Of a stretch of DNA of 64,000 nt, positions 5,474 through 24,173 are shown piece after piece. The position numbers were made by a program, and so were the translations under genes. The notes under the pieces are model-generated. The model had not been told where the DNA came from and made no database searches. It saw only the letters and a program-made list of their open reading frames with translations. Source of the DNA: Pseudogymnoascus verrucosus. Its lineage: Eukaryota. Within the stretch, counting starts at the first letter, position 1; each line of letters begins with the position of its first letter. The stretch is from assembly GCA_001662655.1 (NCBI GenBank), contig KV460218.1, one strand, 5' to 3'.

Positions 5474-6098
5474 GCGCGTATGGGGTGTCGATAGACCGCC
5501 TGTGTCTGTGACGTGGGCCTAGGTTGGGGAGTATCAAGAAAGGGTTATTTGGCAGAGGAAACTAAAATAGCATTTTCTTGTTGAATATTTCCACTACATA
5601 TCGGACTGGGTTTCACGTGTTATTTGACTGACGGTGTGATTGTCACTTGCTTACTTTTGAACCGAACGAGGCGCTAGGAGTCCAAATACCGGCCGTGGTC
5701 CTTCGCGAATTTCCATATATTCCTTGCTGGAGAATACAGGGCGGTGACTCCACTCATCAGTCCTCAGTCCTTCTCAACATCCATCTTCTTTGTTCTTACA
5801 CGCAACAGTGTTTCGTCTCCCACGACTACCTGTCCAATGCCTCATCTCCCAGATACTCTCACTTGTACTATTACATGACATTGTGATATAGTGGTTCTTT
5901 TGAGCGGTCGAAACAGGAAACGGACACTATTATAGAATGGTTGGGTTTATTTTCTGGGCACTATTTTTGAAGTTCTGACAATCCTCAAGGCAGAAGCATG
6001 CAGCACCGCCTCACTCACAACCTATATAATCCACCTCACCCCACCCCACCTCACCTCACCACAGCCCTCCCTAAACTAAATTCACCCATCCACCCACC

Positions 6099-6692
6099 AT
6101 GGAACAACCACGCCAATACATAATCCAACTATCCGGCCTCCCCGGCTCCGGCAAAAGCACCATCGCCCACCGCCTCGCCCGCTCCATAGACGGCATAGTA
6201 ATAAACCACGACCTCCTCAAATCCTTCTTCCTCGACACCTCCGCATCCACCTCTACCTCCACCGCCACCAGCCTCGACCAAGCCGCCAAGCTCGCCTACA
6301 CGCTCGACTGGATCCTCGCCGAGGACCTCCTCAAGCAAGGCCGCAGCGTCATCATCGACAGCGTGTGCAACTACACCACGCTGATCGAGAAAGGTGTAGA
6401 ATTAGCGGAGAAGTTCGGCTGCGAGTATCGCTTTGTGGAGTGTAGGGTGCAGGATGTGGAGGTGTTGGATAGGAGATTAAAGGGGAGAGTAGCGATGAGG
6501 AGTCAGAGGACGGGGATTGATGCGCCGCCGGTGGATGCGGAGGGGGTGGGGGAGGGGAGTGTGGATCATCGCGAGGTGCTGAGGAGGAAGTTGGAGAATC
6601 CGGTGCGTCCGGGTAGTGGTGCTATTGTTGTGGACTCGAGTGGGAGTACGGAGGAGTGTGTGGAGGAGATTTTGAGGAGGATTGTGCTTTGA
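6099..6692 (+). CDS. P-loop nucleotide kinase-like protein (AAA_33-type)
   Basis: Walker A GLPGSGKST, Walker B-like SVIIDS, lid motif RRLKGR; single exon. Confidence 0.85.
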   Translation: MEQPRQYIIQLSGLPGSGKSTIAHRLARSIDGIVINHDLLKSFFLDTSASTSTSTATSLDQAAKLAYTLDWILAEDLLKQGRSVIIDSVCNYTTLIEKGVELAEKFGCEYRFVECRVQDVEVLDRRLKGRVAMRSQRTGIDAPPVDAEGVGEGSVDHREVLRRKLENPVRPGSGAIVVDSSGSTEECVEEILRRIVL

Positions 6693-15779: not shown

Positions 15780-16774
15780 CTAATCAGAATACGCCCTACT
15801 CGCCCCTCTCAGAGCAGGAATGCGATATCGCATCAACATCGGCAATGCATCGAGTCTAATCTTCGAAACAAAAACTTCATCGCCCTCGATGGACATAACC
15901 TTGAATATTGTTCCAATCATCACAGCAGTCTGTACTGCCTCCCAATTCGCTTCCAAAGAATCACGAATTTCAGCCGGCGTGTCTTCAAGAAGCCCATCCC
16001 AAAACCCCCAATCAATAGCCTCAAATTCGGGGCGCTGGCGGAAGACTATGTCGATTATCTCTCCAGCCAGGAACTGAATACAGTAACACGCAACACCAAA
16101 TGGCTGAGGAGGAGGTGATAGTTCCCAGTCGATAACACCAGTAACTTCAGCGTTTTCTCCAACAAGAACATTCATCTCATTTAAATCGAGGTGCCCAAAG
16201 AATAGAGGGAGTTTTTTCAAAGCCGGAGCCTCCTCGATCAACTTGGAAATAAATGCGGAGAATGGCTTGACATCATCTCTTTCGAGGGCGAGAGCGCGAA
16301 TCTTGTGTAGATTGGGGATGATATCGGAGTCGACTACCTCGCCTGCGTTGCCTTCAACAAAACATCGAGCGAAGACACGACCTAGAGATTCGGAACAAGT
16401 AGCTCGCTGGGTTTCGTTCCATATATCTTCATACTCCATCCAAGGCTTTCCAGGAATACGGGTCATATAAAATGGCCATACTCCAGCTTCGACCAGTTCC
16501 AGGTCATGAGTAGCTTCAATCATGGGCACTATATCGCCGAGAAGATTGCGAGCATGGAAGAACGGCTCTACGTCTAGAGCTTCGATTCTGAATTGGATTA
16601 TGACATTCCGACCATCCTGGAGAAAGACCTCTAGTGTCTTACTAAAACATCCCTGGGTAGTCGTGAGCTGAGCCGATATTGCTTTGATTCCAAGGTGTTG
16701 CGATGCAAGCTCTTTTGCTTTGTTGATTTGCTTTCAGCGTTATTCAACGATGTAGGGAAATCGGAGTCTGACAT
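15780..16774 (-). pseudogene. APH/choline-kinase-like phosphotransferase with a 1-nt frameshift near 16732
   Basis: Motifs QGCFSKT, HLDLNEMNVLV and GVIDWE. The ATG at 16774 is out of frame with the domain ORF; adding one A to the A3 run (plus-strand T3 at 16732-16734) restores it. Confidence 0.7.
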
Positions 16775-17302: not shown

Positions 17303-19086
17303 ATGGAACTTGGAACAGGATTGGCACTAGTAGCCTTTGCTGATCAATGTATCAAGTCAGTTACATGTAGCTACTAAAGATCCTTCCTAACCTATTTATA
17401 CTTCCCCTCATCACGTTGATTATATAAATTACTGTTCTAACCCTCCTGTACAGATACGGAACCAAACTAGTGAAACGATGCAAAAGTTATCGCCATGCAG
17501 TGGACGAGGCGAGGGCCTTTTTGGTCACAATCGAGCACAACTGGCGGAAGACCGAATCCCAAATCAAGTTCCTTAAATCAATCGCTACCACTTTAGACGA
17601 AGACTATCTCGAGATGCAATCGATCCTGTTATCTGAGCTAGAAGGCCAGCTAAAGACAGCGACGCTCACTTTAGACCAGCTGATTGAGAAAAGCAAGCGC
17701 GGGAAGTCGCGCACAGAGTCTAATATCATCGATCGCATGAAGAGTCTCGTAGTGATGACACCTGGCCAGAAGATCAAATATGCTTTCGAAAAGGGCACAC
17801 TACAGGACCTAGTCAATGGTCTTGAAAAGTGGCAGGGAAGATTCGATCCTTGCTGGATGCTGATAATGCGAATTGAATCCCGAAGCATCGACAACGAGCT
17901 GTCTCGGGAAACACAAAAACCCCCGGCTCAGCAGATTCCGTTCATTATGGCAGCAAAGGAGATGCGCGATGCTGTTCATGCGACTTTAGTGGAAAACCCT
18001 GCAGTCGAAGTTCCGATTTGGCTGGATGCGGACTCTTACCATTCATCTAACGATGTAATTGAGTTCTCTCCCATCTCAATTCATCTCTCAAAGTCGACTG
18101 GGAATAGTCTTATGATAGAGACAATGCGCTGCAACATCAGATCCGATATTGACAGGACCACGAAGGATGCTCGTGATCTTGCCCAAATCCTGCACAAGAT
18201 CAACTCCCCAAACTTCGGCCTACTCAAATGCCAAGGAATCATTAAAGAATCAGAGACTGTCACAGATCAGTTCGGACATCCTAAAGCTCTTCCAACCTTT
18301 TCATTCGTGTTTGAAATTCCCAAAGACTTTCGGAACCCGCGAACTCTCCGTGGCATTTTACAAGAAGCTGCTCCTTTCCCATTAAATGAGCGACTCGACC
18401 TCGCACGCCAGCTCACCTATTCAGTTCTGTATATCCACAGTGCCCGCTTCGTCCACAAGAGCATTCGGCCAGAAACGATTCTTGTGTTTGAGAATGAGAC
18501 GTCGAGTATTGGCGCGCCGTTCTTGGTTGGATTCGAGAAGTTTCGCCCTGCGGATGGACACACTTATTTGATTGGAGATGAGAGTTGGGAGAAGAATCTC
18601 TGTATGTTCTAAGCATCCTTTAATATCGTACGGCAAGTACTGACAGAATCTATAGACCGCCATCCAACACGCCAAGGTATTTTGCCCGAAGAGCAGTATA
18701 AGATGCAGCATGATGTATATAGCATTGGCGTAGTGCTTTTGGAGATTGGTCTTTGGACTTCACTTGTCACTTACCCTCAAATCTCAAGTCCGAACACGGA
18801 AGGTAACATTCCGGTCGCTTCGGAATATGTTAACCTCGTGTCGCCAGGCAAAGAGAAAGATCCTCGCCTGCGAGCATTTCGAGATAAAGAGATGTTAGAA
18901 AATCTCGCTGAGCGTGAACTGCCTCATAGACTTGGGAGAAAGTATACTGATATGGTATTGCTATGTCTGCGGTCTCTAGATAACCTAGAGACTGGTATTC
19001 CGGGCGGCGTGGATAAAGATGGAATAGGAATTGGCGTAAGTTTCGTTGAAACAGTGTTAGAATTAATACATGGGATTTCTCTTTGA
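17303..19086 (+). CDS. HeLo-like N-terminal helical domain + pseudokinase (543 aa; exons 17303-17355, 17454-18601, 18656-19086)
   Basis: N-terminus MELGTGLALVAFADQCIKYG resembles HeLo/HELL N-terminal helices. The kinase-like lobe has HKSIRPETIL in place of HRDLKxxN, GFEKFR in place of DFG, then YRHP and DVYSIGVVLLEIGLW. The splice sites restore the frame. Confidence 0.8.
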
Positions 19087-19547
19087 TTTGCTGAGAGATC
19101 GAGCGAGAGGTAGAGACACTAAGACACCGAGATACTGATTTCATAGCAGAGAGGCTAGGAGATTACGAGAGAAGCATAGACGCGGGGAGACACAGGGAGA
19201 GGCAGAGAGACTCAGACATCGAGGGGGAGAGAGAGGAACTGAGAAGCCAAGATACTAAAAGAGAGGGACGGAGGAATTAAGAGACCGAGGGACGGACTGA
19301 GAGGCAGAGGGTCTAAGAAATTGAGAGAGAGGCTGAGATGCTAAGAAATTAAGGGATACGTATAGAGATTGAGCGCGAGGCAGGGAGAGAGAGAGAGAAT
19401 AGAGGATTAAGAGAGGGAGGAGTAGATGTTCTACGAATATGTGATTTATAGCTTTAATTTTGCGTAATAACAATGGAGGAGTAACTGCAGTCTTTCGTCA
19501 TTAATGATTGCGTTTAATACATTGTGTTACTTCTCTTAACTCCTTAG

Positions 19548-22014
19548 TTACCCAACGCTTCGTTTTGCATCCTCTAGTGTCGGTTCATAAGATGCCAACA
19601 ATGGTTTGGTATCCTTCAATGCCTTAGCCTGAATTTGCCGCTGTTTCGCCGGGTCCTTTGTAAGGATCGGAAGTAGATCCCCTGGAATCGGGGCGTGAAG
19701 GTTGAAACTCTTAGAGAATGCTATCAAGTCGCCGAGCTTTACTTCTCGAGCTTTCCTAGCTTTCTCTAATCTGGTGGCTTCAGCTTCCTGTTTGATATGC
19801 AGCTTAAATTTTTCAAAAGCAGTAAGAGACGCCTTTGTTTTTGCTCCGGTGTCTGCTGTACCTAACGGATTTTCGTTTCTCTCGGGGGTATCCTTAGTCG
19901 GCAGATCACTCACTGGCCCGAGAACCGTAAAAGGATTCACTTCTACAACCGGAAGTTTCGCAGTAGAATTCTCGTACAGCTCTTTCGCTTTCTTTGCCTT
20001 TCGTTTAGCAGACTTGCTTAGCGGAGCATCCTCTATGCCTGCATTTGATTTCTCCGGAGCCCCGTAGCTGTTAGACCTTCCGTGAGAGGTCACTTGAGAA
20101 ACTGTAGGTGCGATTAAAGCGCTCGGTTTGACAATTAGACCACCGGAAACAGTATTGACTGGAGCTTCTGAGGCATGGGTAGAGGTGGCTGAGCGATAAA
20201 TATCCGGACGATTTAGTCCATGGCCGGCATCGCCTAGTGGCTTTGCCGATGGCAGCTTAACAATGTCACCTTCTGGATTCCTGATGATAATTGCTGCGCT
20301 CCTAGGGGTTGTGCGTTGGAAAGGGCTACGGGGAGCCACAGCCTTTGCCTGGGGAGTTTGGTGAATTACGGACGCTGGGATTGAAGGAGTTCGGGGCTGG
20401 CCTAGGTTGGAGTTTGGCCTTTCGGACATTTGCGGAGGAGTGAGTCCGGTTGCGGCTACATTAGCCCATGTTTGCCTAGGAGAATTTTCTTGTAAAAATC
20501 TCTCACTTTCCTTCCACACTTTCTCAATACTTTCTGCGAATTTAGGCGAGGATATATGTTCGTCCACTTGTCCTTCCTTCACTGGCATATCTCTAGTGAA
20601 CGTCTTGAATGTAGACTTGTCAGATTGCACATAGCCATCCGCATACAAGGGCGGAGCTAAGTCCGCAACTATCCTCTGAGTAGAGTTGTCGAGGCTCTCG
20701 TCGATATTTGTGCCATCTAAATGATTCGAGGTAGCTATGCCTGCAGCCAGAGATGGTTGACTTGTTTCCTTTGTAGTATGTAGTGGGATGGGCCTAAGAC
20801 TGGAGGGCGAGCCATGGCTGCTAATACTTTGGGTTGCTGATATGCTTTGCAAGCCAGCATGGGTCACAGTATCGTATCCCTCAGTGTTAAGAGTAGATTC
20901 CCAAGTAGTTCGTTGCCCGTAGTCACTAAAAGGAACTAGACCAGACGTGGAATTTAGATTTAAGCCTAGAAGCCAGTTAACAAATATACCAACAAATCCA
21001 TTCCTCACTTACCAATCTGCATCCAAGGATGGTCTAAAGCTTGCTGGGCATTCAGTCTATCCCGCGGAATTGGCGCAAGTAGACTTTGAATAAACTCTAT
21101 GCCAGATTGGTCCAATTGAAGAGACTGATACAGGAATCCCGATGGGTTTTCACAGAATTTATACAAGGAAGGGCCAGGTGGAAACGGGACAACTCCACTT
21201 CCCAGCCGATAGACGATGCATCCCAGTGCCCATAGATCTACGGCAGTTGTATATGCAGACTTGTGAGGGTCTTCTCGAGGCACGTAATCTAATATCTCAG
21301 GCGCCATGTATGATTCCGTGCCTGTTTGTGTCCGGTATGCGGTTTCCTCGGTGCGTCTTTTAGTTAATCCAAAATCGGCAAGCTTGACCCACCACTGGGG
21401 ACCCGTTCTACATACTAAAACATTCTAGGGAGATATCAGCACGTGTATCATGAGAATGTTAGCTAGTCGGTTACCTTGGGCTTTAGATCTCGGTGAACGA
21501 AAGATTCCGAGTGCATGATCTTCAGACCTTCTAAGATTTGAAAGGTGATGAGCCTGATTTCTGGTTCCACTAATTGTCCAGGCCTAGAGGGCACATTGTG
21601 CTCAAGGTCACCTAGGGGAATGTATTCCATAGCCAAGTATACGCTGTCAGAATCCTCGAACCAGCCTAAGAATTCCACAAACACGGCCGCCTCTTTGTAT
21701 TTCAATTTCGAGAACTCCACTAGAGCCTCAAGCTCCCTTTGATATTCCCTTTTCAGTGTCGATCCGCTTGTCCACAGACGCTTCACTGCCCTCTGCTCGC
21801 TCCCCTCCATGAGAACCTCCAAACGAATTTCGCCAAACGCGCCCTTCCCAATGATTCGCTCAACCCTCCATACTTTTTGTTTCGGGACACGTCTCTGACC
21901 AGATACCAGGTCGGATACCAAATGTGTCTCTACAACAAGGTTTGCTTCCCGGATAACTTGTGCGTTGATCTTCGTGTGGTCGAATTGAGAGAGATGGGAG
22001 AGATGGGAGGACAT
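19548..22014 (-). CDS. Ser/Thr protein kinase with long disordered C-terminal tail ending in a Pbp1/ataxin-2-like segment (789 aa; exons 22014-21475, 21424-21013, 20965-19548)
   Basis: Complete catalytic motif set: GKGAFG, AVK, HRDLKPKN, DFG, YMAPE, DLWALG. Both introns are GT-AG and keep the frame. Confidence 0.88.
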
Positions 22015-24173
22015 GGTGGACTCTGGTCATTACAGGGCGCAAGCCTGCGACAGCCTTGCGACAGACTTTATGCCTTTACTATCGCTCTCTATCAATATTA
22101 AAGCACTGTTAGTGTCACTTCCATATCATGGCTTCTAAAAGACCTCTGCAAAGAGTCGTTAAGGGTTATGGTGTTCAAGTTACGTCGATTAAATTGAGGT
22201 GTTGATCAGGCTTGCCCATCCATCGAATGAGCCTCACATGACGATGCAGGGATACATACCTTCTTATGACTAATCATACAGGACGACAAGGCTTACTTTT
22301 CGGATTCAAGAAATGTGCCTTGCCTCTGATAATTTACCGGTGATGGACGACCACTCTCCCCTTTAACTATGCCTCTCTCTACCATCGCTCCTCTCTCCTA
22401 ACATTCTTAGACCTACCACGCTCATTGTTCAACGCTTAGTCACTTCTACCCCAAAATAACACCAAGAGTGCCCAGACAAATACACACCATGGATAGGGCG
22501 CATCATTCGCATTATTTCGATGTTATGGCTTTGCATTATGAGATATCCCTCAGCTGGAGACGTTGAACTTATGTAGTAAACACTGCGACTTGGCTGCGCT
22601 CTTACATTACTGGTATTCATGGCGTAGCCTCTTAAGTATGAAAGAGCTTGTCACAGTGGAAAGGAGACCCGCCGCAGAAGATGGCGAAAAGATGAGGCAA
22701 AAGTGAGAGATATATAACAGAAACATAGATATGGGGCGGGGTTTCGCATACTTCGCGGCGGATGTGAGTGAGTTATATTCAGTACGCCGAGTTTAATACG
22801 TGGAATAGCAACAAAACGATGTAGTGTTCCGCCGAAGTTGCTATTCAACGGGACTGGTGTTGACAACAGGTCTTGGTAATGCAGTAGAGCCTCGTTGTAA
22901 GAAAAGCCTTCGGGTCTGCATTGTAAACCCTTATATACAGGACTACGGTACTGTGCTTCCATAATATCTGGAGCTATCGGAGACGACATGGAGGAACATA
23001 CTGTATATATCGGCTTATTATCATGGTTATTATCCCTAGTACGTAGACACGAAAGCTAGGGACGCCTCAAGATCAAGTGAGGGGCTTCGAGACTATGAGA
23101 TCGACACCTCAAGATCGGCTCTAAGAAACCAAATCTACCCGCCCGACTCTTAGACTAACAAATCCCCTAGACACACCTAACCCCCCCCTAGACTAATTCA
23201 AACCTACACCATCCCATAATAGCCCGTAATCGGCTAAAACAACGTAATTATTTAAGACAGTCCAGCAAGACTGGGAAATTTCGAATGCTGGCAGCCGTAA
23301 ATTGAACTCGAGACTCAGATGTTATATAGACAGGAAATTGCCGAACGATGCAGACGATCAATGATAGTTAACACGGAGGAAACATGTAAGTACTTTTGTA
23401 TTTGTATCAGGTAATGGGGCAAGATTAAGTTAAGTTATCACATTGGAGAAATGTCGTTGAGTTAAGGAATCAGATGGTCACTATAGTGGAACCGGGGTGG
23501 CCCGTGGCCGCTGGTCCGGATCCAAAGTCACACCTAGACCGGTGAGGCCCAGCGAATTTCGACCTTGGCCCTTGCCAATTCTGTAAATTGCCGCTTTAGA
23601 TTCACATCAAGGCTGTTGATTGCGGATCCTGCTGCGAAATAATAAGCTGCAGGAGTCGGCACAGAACCATATTGTGTAGTGGAAGAAAAAGGAGATGAAG
23701 AGTAATGATGACGACAGCACGTACACTCAAGTAGCAGACGAGGCGTTCCTTAAAAAATAAAATCACTTAACGCTGGCGGTTACTAGCAACTTAATGATGT
23801 GCCAGCAGTATTGGCTGCGGCAATAGGGTGCTTAGGATGCGCTGGATGACGTACAAGCGTACTACAAGGGACATTTTCTGTCTTCAATTATATTCTTGTT
23901 TCACTGAGGTGTCTTCGATATTTGTTTTGTATATATCTATATAACAAGTACTTTCTAGTAACGAGTAAAATTACAATCCCGCTACCTTCACTGAATGGAA
24001 CATTTCATCGGCAGGCCACAGGGGCCATCTGTAGTCTCTTCACCTTTCCGTTGGACCGTAGCTCTTTTGTGGGCGTCATCGCCTGCTGCCCTCACATTCT
24101 GACCTCTGTTGTTCGATTCCACCGCGTTCGAGCTGTCTCCAGTGGCAACAGTTCTACTCGGTGGTGCAGCTAG

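What the first reader, a model, noticed from the sequence alone, without database searches (positions are those of the whole stretch)
19548..20475. Kinase tail appears to be a mosaic of stress-granule/translation-factor motifs (integrated decoy?)
Seen: in an otherwise disordered tail, AFEKFK...KAREVKLGDLIAFSKSFNLHAPIPGDLLPILTKDPAKQRQIQ (about 19630-19820), VNPFTVLG (about 19917-19940), PRSAAIIIRNPEGDIVKL (about 20253-20306) and QTWANVAA (about 20452-20475). From memory, the first closely resembles the conserved segment of fungal Pbp1/ataxin-2 (KLxELxKFSxxFKLxTPVPxDLVPILAKD). The others weakly resemble Stm1/SERBP1 NPFxLL, a fungal eIF4G SAAIVIK segment and G3BP/Bre5-type TWAxxA motifs. Inference: the tail is bait or a sensor coupling attack on the translation/stress-granule machinery (for example by viruses or effectors) to kinase activation and the neighbouring death effector.
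Basis: partly seen in the sequence, partly recalled or inferred. Interest (0 to 1): 0.75.

Follow-up and report, generated by a model that had tools for sequence, protein, structure and literature searches.

The report
Kinase tail carrying a Pbp1 module
A fungal protein kinase ends in a piece copied from the stress-granule protein Pbp1/ataxin-2, belongs to a kinase family whose tails are swapped between relatives, and repeatedly sits next to an MLKL-like cell-death gene, which suggests a necroptosis-like sensor and executioner pair.

Summary
Only the first is more than chance. The last ~75-95 residues of the tail (window 19551-19838, minus strand) are a real copy of a conserved helical module of fungal Pbp1/ataxin-2: 404 hits at E<=1e-3, and 45% identity at E 2e-17 to the genus's own Pbp1. 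The Stm1-, eIF4G- and G3BP-like strings found no relative, and the eIF4G-like one is missing from more distant orthologs.

The tail is exon 3 of a 789-aa, apparently active Ser/Thr kinase, identical to an annotated Pseudogymnoascus protein.

Relatives of this kinase carry very different C-termini: WD40, ANK, TPR, SH3, WW/C2, ubiquitin, PX and others.

The neighbouring gene encodes a helical-bundle (HeLo-type) plus pseudokinase protein with an MLKL-like layout. A homolog of it lies beside a family kinase in 8 of 36 metagenome loci with enough flank and in annotated genomes of two other genera. The two partners' divergences correlate (r 0.57, p 0.0016).

Best reading: a sensor kinase plus MLKL-like executioner pair with a swappable input tail. 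Whether the Pbp1 module is bait or a docking site is open. Splicing and kinase-to-pseudokinase signalling are not shown.

The parts
21475..22014 (-). Kinase gene exon 1 (Met at 22014; Gly-rich loop GKGAFG, AVK lysine, HRDLKPK)
   Evidence: (Pkinase 2.7e-20). Its translation is contained exactly in P0375.
21425..21474 (-). Intron 1 (50 nt, gtaacc...ctaac...tag), splitting HRDLKPK|NVLV
   Evidence: Joining restores the HRDLKPKNVLV kinase motif found in P0003/P0375.
21013..21424 (-). Kinase gene exon 2 (DFG, APE, C-lobe, ends ...HPWMQI)
   Evidence: Pkinase 9.2e-24, profile 128-263 of 263.
20966..21012 (-). Intron 2 (47 nt, gtaagt...ttaac...tag). Unspliced, the frame stops at MQIGK*
   Evidence: Predicted only: no RNA contig bridges it.
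19548..20965 (-). Exon 3: 472-aa Ser/Pro/Thr/Ala-rich C-terminal tail plus stop codon (the finding)
   Evidence: composition; translation contained exactly in the 789-aa P0375.
20844..20879 (-). Post-kinase linker motif GYDTVTHAGLQS, shared with family members that have other tails. It ties exon 3 to the kinase
20451..20474 (-). QTWANVAA string. Conserved in tail orthologs and in the PX-tail relative P0007, so it is part of the shared stem, not a swapped piece. No link to G3BP/Bre5 was found
   Evidence: In module carriers the narrower pattern [ST]WA..[AVIL][AST] matched 1 of 144.
20253..20306 (-). PRSAAIIIRNPEGDIVKL string (said to be eIF4G-like). It lies in a lineage-specific segment absent from P0004/P0005/P0006. 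No homolog was found
   Evidence: (0 of 144 module carriers).
19917..19940 (-). VNPFTVLG string (said to be Stm1-like). Only NP[FY] is kept in orthologs. No homolog was found
19551..19838 (-). Pbp1/ataxin-2-type helical module (core 19629-19820), the last 96 residues of the protein
   Evidence: (AF2 pLDDT 85; helices 3-50, 59-65, 69-87).
17303..19086 (+). Convergent neighbour gene for a HeLo-type helical bundle plus pseudokinase, 543 aa. Exons 17303-17355, 17454-18601 and 18656-19086
   Evidence: HKSIRPET stands in place of HRD...N and GFEKFR in place of DFG.

Best explanation
SHOWN. Window 19548-20965 (minus strand) is the last exon of a 789-aa Ser/Thr kinase gene (22014 to 19548) that has all the catalytic motifs. 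Its 472-aa tail is mostly low-complexity. It ends in a ~75-95-residue helical module homologous to a conserved module that fungal Pbp1/ataxin-2 carries between LsmAD and PAM2. The tail copies form one clade on a long branch, inside a group that holds Leotiomycete Pbp1s. That fits a single capture in the Pseudogymnoascus lineage followed by divergence. The kinase belongs to a Pezizomycotina family built from a conserved kinase domain, a short linker motif (GYDTVTHAGLQS) and a highly variable C-terminus: WD40, ANK, TPR, SH3, WW(+C2), ubiquitin-like, PX, RhoGAP, ENTH, ACBP, zinc fingers, or here the Pbp1 module. Members of the family recurrently lie next to a gene for a protein with four long N-terminal helices, brace-like helices and a pseudokinase domain, which is the MLKL layout.

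INFERRED. The pair works like RIPK3 and MLKL. The variable tail is the input: it binds a ligand or target. Engagement activates the kinase, probably by clustering or by relief of autoinhibition. The kinase then phosphorylates the pseudokinase's activation loop, where a Thr (T388) is nearly invariant, and this frees the helical bundle to damage membranes. In this gene the input would be whatever binds that Pbp1 helix. That could be Pbp1's own partner; Mkt1 or Pab1 are candidates, both untested. It could also be a foreign factor that targets Pbp1. The QTWANVAA, PRSAAIII... and NPF strings are ordinary parts of a disordered tail.
For: Module homology: a profile search found 404 hits at E<=1e-3 and 74 at E<=1e-10, and in 146 of the 150 listed the best stretch lies in profile positions 285-489. 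Of 44 hits scanned, 21 carry LsmAD, with the module 100-200 residues downstream of it. [quoted passage not shown] The columns that are invariant or nearly so in an alignment of the window's module with three tail orthologs and 51 other module carriers are L44, F47, F51, D60, Q72, F14, F17, K52, L53, P56, P58, and those residues are also invariant among the four tail sequences. AF2 gives pLDDT 85 with helices. The tail copies form one clade (SH-aLRT 92, stem 0.95) inside a 39-row group (support 94) that holds Blumeria, Drepanopeziza and P. australis Pbp1.

Gene model: the splice signals are canonical, and the three exon translations are contained exactly in the 789-aa P0375. The family linker motif lies in exon 3. 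Relatives have kinase and tail in one intron-free ORF: L002 1146 aa, L013 737 aa, L005 and L014.

Variable tails: (PX in P0007, which shares the linker).

Pairing: a homolog lies adjacent in 8 of 36 metagenome loci with enough flank. Six of these are head-to-head with about 440-860 bp between the 5' ends. As a control, 5 other window proteins, including an MFS transporter and an FAD monooxygenase, gave 0 hits in the same 496,680 bases. Accessions are consecutive in Helicocarpus griseus (PGG98753.1/PGG98754.1, one 47,406-bp contig) and Xylogone sp. (KAH8808783.1/KAH8808784.1), and locus tags are consecutive in 5 Pseudogymnoascus genomes. Kinase and partner distances correlate over 10 pairs (Mantel r 0.567, p 0.0016). 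The window, Helicocarpus and Xylogone pairs are mutually closest in both genes although their tails differ.
Against: No transcript evidence exists for the exon 2-3 junction. The laid contigs do not bridge it, and none is on record as RNA. P0003 and P0375 are predicted models, not independent proof.

In the window the two genes are convergent (tail to tail), unlike the head-to-head layout of 6 of the 8 paired metagenome loci. The other 28 of 36 loci with enough flank have no such neighbour.

None of 39 homologs of the neighbour hits Pfam HeLo directly; 1 of 39 hits RPW8 at 7e-4. The fold searches were filled by the kinase domain, so the N-terminal bundle was never compared with MLKL or HET-S.

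No contact between kinase and pseudokinase, no phosphorylation and no cell-death activity was shown.

Among orthologs the module is no better conserved than the rest of the tail: 62% against about 70% in P0004. Its stem branch is long, which would also fit relaxed constraint.

The Mantel signal leans on one close trio, and the tree is a quick, unfinished search on 95 columns.
Confidence: 0.5

Rival explanations
1. Ordinary targeting module. The Pbp1-derived helix is a docking peptide that takes a conventional signalling kinase to Pbp1's partners on mRNPs, polysomes or stress granules, where it regulates translation or stress responses. The HeLo-pseudokinase neighbour is a co-evolving regulatory or scaffold partner, or simply a linked gene, with no role in cell death.
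For: The module keeps the residues conserved in Pbp1, so it probably still binds something. An unrelated kinase (P0120: kinase + ANK + module, with only generic kinase similarity) and non-kinase proteins (P0084, P0064, P0138) captured the same module independently. That fits a portable docking element. Many family tails are classic localisation or interaction domains: PX, SH3, WW, C2, ENTH, RhoGAP. In yeast, a two-helix region in the middle of Pbp1 is a mapped partner-binding site for Mkt1 (PMC12345631, passages read).
Against: This reading does not explain why an MLKL-like gene is the recurrent, co-diverging neighbour across different tails. It also does not explain why NLR-style repeat sensors (WD40, ANK, TPR) are the commonest tails in the family.
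Confidence: 0.3
2. The tail is a mosaic of four baits taken from Pbp1, Stm1/SERBP1, eIF4G and G3BP/Bre5, and it senses attack on the translation and stress-granule machinery.
For: The Pbp1 part is real. QTWANVAA and NP[FY] are kept in several orthologs. From my own recall, checked by no call, NPFxLLG does open Stm1-type proteins, and an [IV]xIR[DN]P..G string lies near the PABP-binding part of animal eIF4G.
Against: The three short strings have no detectable homolog. The eIF4G-like string is missing from P0004, P0005 and P0006. QTWAN is also kept in P0007, whose tail is a PX domain, so it belongs to the shared stem. Only 74 residues of the tail align to Pbp1.
Confidence: 0.05
3. No function. 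The Pbp1-like piece is a decaying relic of a partial gene duplication, or exon 3 is not part of the kinase mRNA and the fusion is an annotation artefact.
For: There is no RNA evidence for the junction. The stem branch is long and the module is no better conserved than its surroundings. Between close strains several changes in the module alter the protein (P0001 against P0002).
Against: The frame stays open for 472 codons and is kept in six named Pseudogymnoascus genomes as proteins of 787-789 aa. The family-wide linker motif sits in exon 3. The Pbp1-conserved residues are retained across orthologs down to 57% identity, and P0004 even carries a second copy of the module.
Confidence: 0.07

Closest known systems
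Fungal Pbp1 / ataxin-2 (LSm + LsmAD + disordered regions + PAM2)
   Same: They share one conserved ~75-residue helical module that in Pbp1 lies 100-200 residues after LsmAD and, where a PAM2-like string is recognisable, before it.
   Different: The tail has no LSm, LsmAD or PAM2 and sits at the C-terminus of a protein kinase. The rest of the tail is unrelated to Pbp1.
Yeast Pbp1 Mkt1-binding region (aa 491-549; PMC12345631, passages read)
   Same: Both are parts of the middle of Pbp1 with predicted helices. The paper reports two conserved stretches, of 4 aa (500-503) and 3 aa (536-538), which start 36 residues apart. In the module, FxxF and F[KN]L start 37 apart.
   Different: The paper says its region is conserved only in yeasts.
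RIPK3-MLKL necroptosis (animals)
   Same: An active Ser/Thr kinase is partnered with a protein built of a helical bundle, brace-like helices and a pseudokinase that lacks catalytic residues. A nearly invariant Thr lies in the pseudokinase activation loop.
   Different: No RHIM was looked for or seen. The kinase is CAMK-like by the names its nearest relatives carry, not a RIP kinase. The link here is genomic adjacency and co-divergence; no biochemistry is shown. The fungal kinase carries a variable sensor-like tail.
Fungal two-gene death modules (NLR + HET-S/HELLP; protease + gasdermin)
   Same: A variable, often repeat-bearing (WD40/ANK/TPR) upstream component is encoded beside a membrane-targeting executioner (review PMC12881547: passages, section 18).
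   Different: There is no NOD domain and no amyloid motif or protease; the proposed signal is phosphorylation. The review notes HeLo-like domains fused to kinase or pseudokinase domains, but in the passages read it names no paired upstream kinase.
Plant NLRs with integrated decoy domains
   Same: A conserved signalling chassis carries swappable C-terminal domains copied from host proteins. Here these are the Pbp1 module, ubiquitin, PX, SH3, WW/C2 and ACBP.
   Different: The chassis is a kinase, not an NLR. No effector or target relationship is known for any of these tails.

Membership tests
Pbp1/ataxin-2 family | LsmAD domain (PF06741), with the SM-ATX/LSm domain | tested here: not met
   Pfam scan of the tail ORF and both kinase exons at E<=1 found no LsmAD or SM-ATX. 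By contrast, 21 of 44 module-carrying hits have LsmAD.
Pbp1/ataxin-2 family | PAM2 motif | tested here: not met
   No PAM2 Pfam hit. A PAM2-like regex matched 14 of 144 module carriers, each downstream of the module, and it does not match the window's tail on reading.
Pbp1 mid-region helical module (no Pfam family found) | Significant sequence match over the ~75-aa module with the conserved F..F, L..L..F, F[KN]L, P.P.DL..I..KD..KQ..I residues | tested here: met
   down to E 1e-17 for LsmAD proteins; invariant and near-invariant columns; 45% over 74 aa, E 2e-17, to P. australis Pbp1.
Active eukaryotic protein kinase | Gly-rich loop, VAIK Lys, HRD..N, DFG, APE | tested here: met
   GKGAFG, AVK, HRDLKPKN, DFG and APE are read. 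Pkinase scores 2.7e-20 and 9.2e-24 on the two exons. Activity itself was not assayed.
MLKL-like protein (neighbour gene) | Kinase fold that lacks the catalytic residues | tested here: met
MLKL-like protein (neighbour gene) | N-terminal four-helix bundle of the HeLo/4HB superfamily | tested here: inconclusive
   AF2 gives four helices of 28-29 residues plus shorter ones. The nearest Atlas cluster carries HeLo in 67% of members. P0297 is named 'HET-s/LopB domain protein'. The L019 neighbour hits Pfam HeLo at 1.9e-7. However, 0 of 39 homologs hit HeLo directly, and the fold searches never reached this domain.
RIPK3-MLKL type signalling pair | The kinase binds and phosphorylates the pseudokinase | not testable with these tools
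   No complex model was obtained. The only support is adjacency and co-divergence.
Integrated decoy | The integrated domain derives from a host protein that a pathogen factor targets, and binding triggers the receptor | not testable with these tools
   Derivation from a host protein is met. No pathogen factor is known and no binding data exist.
eIF4G / Stm1 / G3BP-type motifs | Detectable homology of the three short strings to those proteins | tested here: inconclusive
   No listed hit, and no Pfam or PDB sequence hit. Strings of 8-18 residues cannot reach significance in these searches, and named eIF4G, Stm1 and Nxt3 sequences could not be fetched for a direct alignment.

The most novel reading that the evidence does not exclude
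Filamentous fungi have a phosphorylation-driven, necroptosis-like immune module. It is a two-gene cassette of a sensor kinase and an MLKL-like HeLo-pseudokinase executioner, inherited as a unit. The kinase's C-terminal tail is exchanged for repeat sensors (WD40/ANK/TPR) or for pieces copied from host proteins that act as integrated decoys. In this locus the bait is the Pbp1 helix, so the cassette would guard the Pbp1 mRNP axis against mycoviruses or antagonists' effectors.
Probability: 0.3. Interest if true: 0.9.

Novelty: new variant of a known kind. Interest (0 to 1): 0.7.

Why it matters
[quoted passage not shown] The activation routes described in the reviews I read are amyloid templating from NLRs. 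A 2025 review notes HeLo-like domains fused to kinase or pseudokinase domains and asks how far necroptosis is conserved (PMC12881547). In three full-text searches and the passages read (52, 54, 55, 60) I found no description of a paired upstream kinase.

A recurrent, co-diverging kinase and MLKL-like gene pair would make the question 'is there RIPK3-like signalling in fungi?' directly testable with two genes.

The family of swappable tails would also give a ready catalogue of candidate sensed targets. One of them is a conserved but functionally unassigned helix of Pbp1/ataxin-2, so finding what binds that helix would matter for ataxin-2 biology too.

Tried and rejected
RNA evidence: no RNA holder was listed for 19400-22200. 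The contigs of runs X1, X2, X3 and X7 gave no joint and no piece bridging 20966-21012. Short pieces identical to exon 3 come from runs that are probably DNA. This is inconclusive.

Whole genome: none is held for this window.

ESM Atlas on the module gave no usable hit. PDB sequence searches with the module and with the whole tail gave 0 hits at E<=10.

Complex prediction of the kinase domain with the neighbour gave no verdict, because no model was produced.

Fold searches with the neighbour's full model were filled by kinase-domain matches, so the N-terminal bundle stayed untested.

Pfam HeLo on 39 neighbour homologs: 0 direct hits.

Earlier notes of this scan: nothing.

Considered and dropped:
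(a) The whole tail derives from Pbp1. Only 74 residues align, and among 144 module carriers the TWA-type string occurs in 1 and the SAAII-type string in 0.
(b) The module is PAM2 itself. In the 14 of 144 carriers with a PAM2-like string, that string lies downstream of the module.
(c) The module stands out as a conserved island in the tail. It does not.
(d) The adjacency is chance. This was rejected on the control, the shared orientation and the co-divergence.

Literature on the module's function: the passages read in PMC4105795, PMC12898128 and PMC4310746 do not define it. The supplementary tables of PMC12898128 (IDR2 consensus patterns, Table S1G) were not opened and may bear on this.
Full report
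WHAT IS THERE

The finding lies on the minus strand inside a three-exon gene. Exon 1 is 22014-21475, intron 1 is 21474-21425, exon 2 is 21424-21013, intron 2 is 21012-20966 (gtaagt...ttaac...tag, 47 nt) and exon 3 is 20965-19548 including the stop. Exons 1 and 2 encode a complete protein kinase domain (Pkinase 2.7e-20 and 9.2e-24) with GKGAFG, AVK, HRDLKPKN, DFG and APE, so it looks catalytically competent. Without splicing of intron 2 the frame stops at MQIGK. With splicing it runs on for 472 codons. The three exon translations are contained exactly in P0375, a 789-aa protein annotated in Pseudogymnoascus verrucosus and strain VKM F-103. Five further named Pseudogymnoascus genomes carry models of 787-789 aa.

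These are predictions. I could not get transcript evidence: no RNA run is listed as a holder, and no laid contig bridges the intron. Independent support for the junction is that a short motif conserved right after the kinase domain in relatives with other tails (SFG.Y[DN]T.TH.GL[QK]S; P0154, P0155, P0156, P0160, P0166, L006) lies in exon 3 at 20844-20879. Also, several relatives have kinase and tail in one uninterrupted ORF (L002 1146 aa, L013 737 aa, L005, L014).

THE FOUR STRINGS

All four are present at the stated places; one is off by a single base. To test them together I aligned the tail ORF with three relatives (A1) and searched the profile against 1.84 billion representative proteins. 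It found 404 proteins at E<=1e-3, 74 at E<=1e-10 and 4 at E<=1e-30.

Of the 150 listed, four (P0004, P0005, P0007, P0008) match best on the proximal tail and are orthologs or paralogs. The other 146 have their best stretch within profile positions 285-489, the C-terminal part that ends in the module. Of 44 such hits scanned with Pfam, 21 carry LsmAD and 7 of these also SM-ATX, which is the Pbp1/ataxin-2 architecture. The matched stretch lies 100-200 residues after LsmAD. [quoted passage not shown] P0015 aligns to the tail at 45% identity over 74 residues, E 2e-17, and nowhere else.

No Pfam family covers it. AF2 on a 55-row alignment gives pLDDT 85 with a long helix (3-50) and two shorter ones (59-65, 69-87).

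The other three strings found nothing. No listed hit centres on them, and there is no Pfam or PDB sequence match. Among 144 module carriers, a TWA-type string occurs in 1 and an SAAII-type string in 0.

QTWAN[VI][AT]A is kept in tail orthologs and also in P0007, whose tail is a PX domain, so it belongs to the shared stem. Only NP[FY] of the 'Stm1-like' string is kept. The segment with the 'eIF4G-like' string (ORF residues 193-265) is absent from P0004, P0005 and P0006.

Such short strings cannot reach significance, so I call them unsupported, not disproved. The module is not a conservation island either: against P0004 it is 62% identical, compared with about 70% for the linker and for residues 266-356.

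ORIGIN OF THE MODULE

In a quick tree of 149 module copies (95 columns, unfinished careful search), the eight kinase-tail copies form one clade (SH-aLRT 92). It sits on a long stem (0.95) inside a 39-row group (support 94) that contains the Blumeria, Drepanopeziza and P. australis Pbp1 copies. That fits one capture from a Leotiomycete Pbp1 followed by divergence. P0004 carries two tandem copies.

The same module also occurs at the end of unrelated proteins: P0120 (a different kinase + ANK), P0084 (zinc knuckle), P0064 and P0138. It therefore behaves as a portable unit.

Its function in Pbp1 is not defined in the passages I read. A yeast study maps an Mkt1-binding region in the middle of Pbp1, with predicted helices and conserved stretches at 500-503 and 536-538 (PMC12345631). 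The spacing (36) resembles that of FxxF and F[KN]L in the module (37), but the paper says its region is conserved only in yeasts, and I could not align the two. This is a lead only.

THE KINASE FAMILY

A search with the kinase and linker returned relatives from Leotiomycetes, Eurotiomycetes, Sordariomycetes and Lecanoromycetes whose precomputed Pfam lists differ after the kinase domain:
- WD40-type propellers: 12 proteins
- TPR: 8 proteins
- ANK: 3 proteins
- SH3: P0164
- ubiquitin-like: P0166, P0169
- RhoGAP: P0194
- ENTH: P0198
- ACBP: P0204
- long disordered tails:

P0007 and P0008 share the window's linker and then continue into a PX domain and a poly-Asn tail respectively.

A metagenome scan (597 pattern matches, 503 confirmed relatives, 80 loci kept) added further tails: ANK (L002, L005), WD40 (L011, L029, L031, L032, L080), WW+C2 (L013), WW (L014), TPR (L030) and C2H2 fingers (L061). 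In L017 an ORF with an IBR domain lies further downstream of the kinase; that it belongs to the same gene was not checked.

THE NEIGHBOUR

The convergent gene at 17303-19086 (exons 17303-17355, 17454-18601 and 18656-19086; 543 aa; the last exon's translation is contained exactly in P0383, the first two were compared by eye) has weak Pkinase and DUF7580 hits. HKSIRPET and GFEKFR stand in place of the catalytic HRD...N and DFG motifs, and this substitution is invariant in 39 homologs. A Thr in the activation loop is nearly invariant (T388).

The ESM Atlas places it at 0.95 (213 of 256 features) in a cluster where 67% of members carry HeLo and 40% DUF7580. One homolog is named 'HET-s/LopB domain protein'. 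However, none of 39 homologs hits Pfam HeLo directly; one hits RPW8. The fold searches never reached the N-terminal domain. The MLKL-like layout is thus well supported for the pseudokinase half and probable for the bundle.

THE PAIRING

A tblastn search with the neighbour against the 80 loci found a homolog next to the family kinase in L002, L004, L009, L014, L022, L024 and L032, and weakly in L019. The upstream gene of L019 hits Pfam HeLo (1.9e-7) and DUF7580 (1.2e-11). That is 8 of the 36 loci with at least 1.5 kb upstream or 3.5 kb downstream; the other 28 show none. Six of the eight are head-to-head with about 440-860 bp between the 5' ends. In loci with 10 kb on each side, the homolog is always the immediate neighbour.

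As a control, five other window proteins, including an MFS transporter and an FAD monooxygenase from large families, gave no hit in the same 496,680 bases.

In annotated genomes, accessions are consecutive in Helicocarpus griseus (kinase with ubiquitin tail PGG98753.1 and partner PGG98754.1, on the same 47,406-bp contig) and in Xylogone sp. (KAH8808783.1 and KAH8808784.1, kinase with WD40). Locus tags are consecutive in five Pseudogymnoascus genomes.

Over 10 pairs, kinase and partner distances correlate (Mantel r 0.567, permutation p 0.0016). The window, Helicocarpus and Xylogone pairs are mutually closest in both genes although their tails are a Pbp1 module, ubiquitin and WD40. This signal leans on that trio.

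In the window the genes are convergent, not divergent. One further locus (L026) has a HET-domain gene in the divergent position.

READING

Three things are shown: the Pbp1-module homology, the family with swapped tails, and the non-random pairing with a pseudokinase of MLKL-like layout. It is inferred that the kinase signals to the neighbour as RIPK3 does to MLKL, and that the tail is the input. Whether the Pbp1 module is a bait (integrated decoy) or a docking site that takes the kinase to Pbp1's partners cannot be decided here. No model of kinase-pseudokinase contact was obtained, so that step stays open.

Three full-text searches, together with the passages read in three reviews, gave no description of such a kinase and HeLo-pseudokinase pair (52, 54, 55, 60). 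The 2025 review only notes HeLo-like domains fused to kinase or pseudokinase domains. Papers outside the held library were not searched.

VERDICT

I rate it a new variant of a known kind, with interest 0.7.

Noticed in passing
P0007 and P0008: Two relatives share the window's post-kinase linker at about 70% or more and then continue into different tails. P0007 continues into a PX domain (Pfam 5.3e-11), with the break right after the TWANITA string. P0008 continues into a poly-Asn tail. This looks like recent tail replacement within the clade.
   Followed up: partly
P0120, P0084, P0064, P0138: The Pbp1-type module also ends unrelated proteins: a different kinase with ankyrin repeats, a zinc-knuckle protein, a C2H2-like protein, and a Mytilinidion protein with three [RS]SYAAVASS repeats. 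Several short ORF-proteins carry it in tandem (P0010, P0012, P0017, P0021, P0031, P0038, P0072, P0128).
   Followed up: partly
L026:8632-9375 (minus strand): One family kinase has a HET-domain gene (Pfam 9.4e-30), not a HeLo-pseudokinase, in the divergent upstream position. This hints that the partner gene can also be exchanged.
   Followed up: no
window 19095-19340: The gap between the two convergent genes is purine-rich low-complexity DNA (GC skew 0.48; translates as ERE/RD repeats). Contigs of two runs break at 19411 with GA-repeat loose ends.
   Followed up: no
P0268 (VE04_07538) against window 18656-19086: The public model of the neighbour in one strain ends differently (…NLAEQAGIPGG…) from the window's open frame and from P0383, P0307 and P0297 (…LPHRLGRKYTD…CLR.LD…). 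This is probably a mis-predicted last intron in that record.
   Followed up: partly
window 15780-16733 (minus strand) and 6075-6692 (plus strand): An APH-type phosphotransferase ORF (Pfam 2.2e-6) lies just upstream of the neighbour gene. Further off is an AAA_33 / zeta-toxin-like P-loop kinase ORF (3.6e-14). With the MFS and FAD-monooxygenase genes at 28-33 kb, the region looks like accessory, non-core genome.
   Followed up: no
A3, column of P0383 residue 388: A Thr in the pseudokinase activation loop (…RPADGHTYL…) is nearly invariant in 39 homologs, alongside invariant H352/K353 and G377/F378. It is a candidate phospho-acceptor.
   Followed up: no
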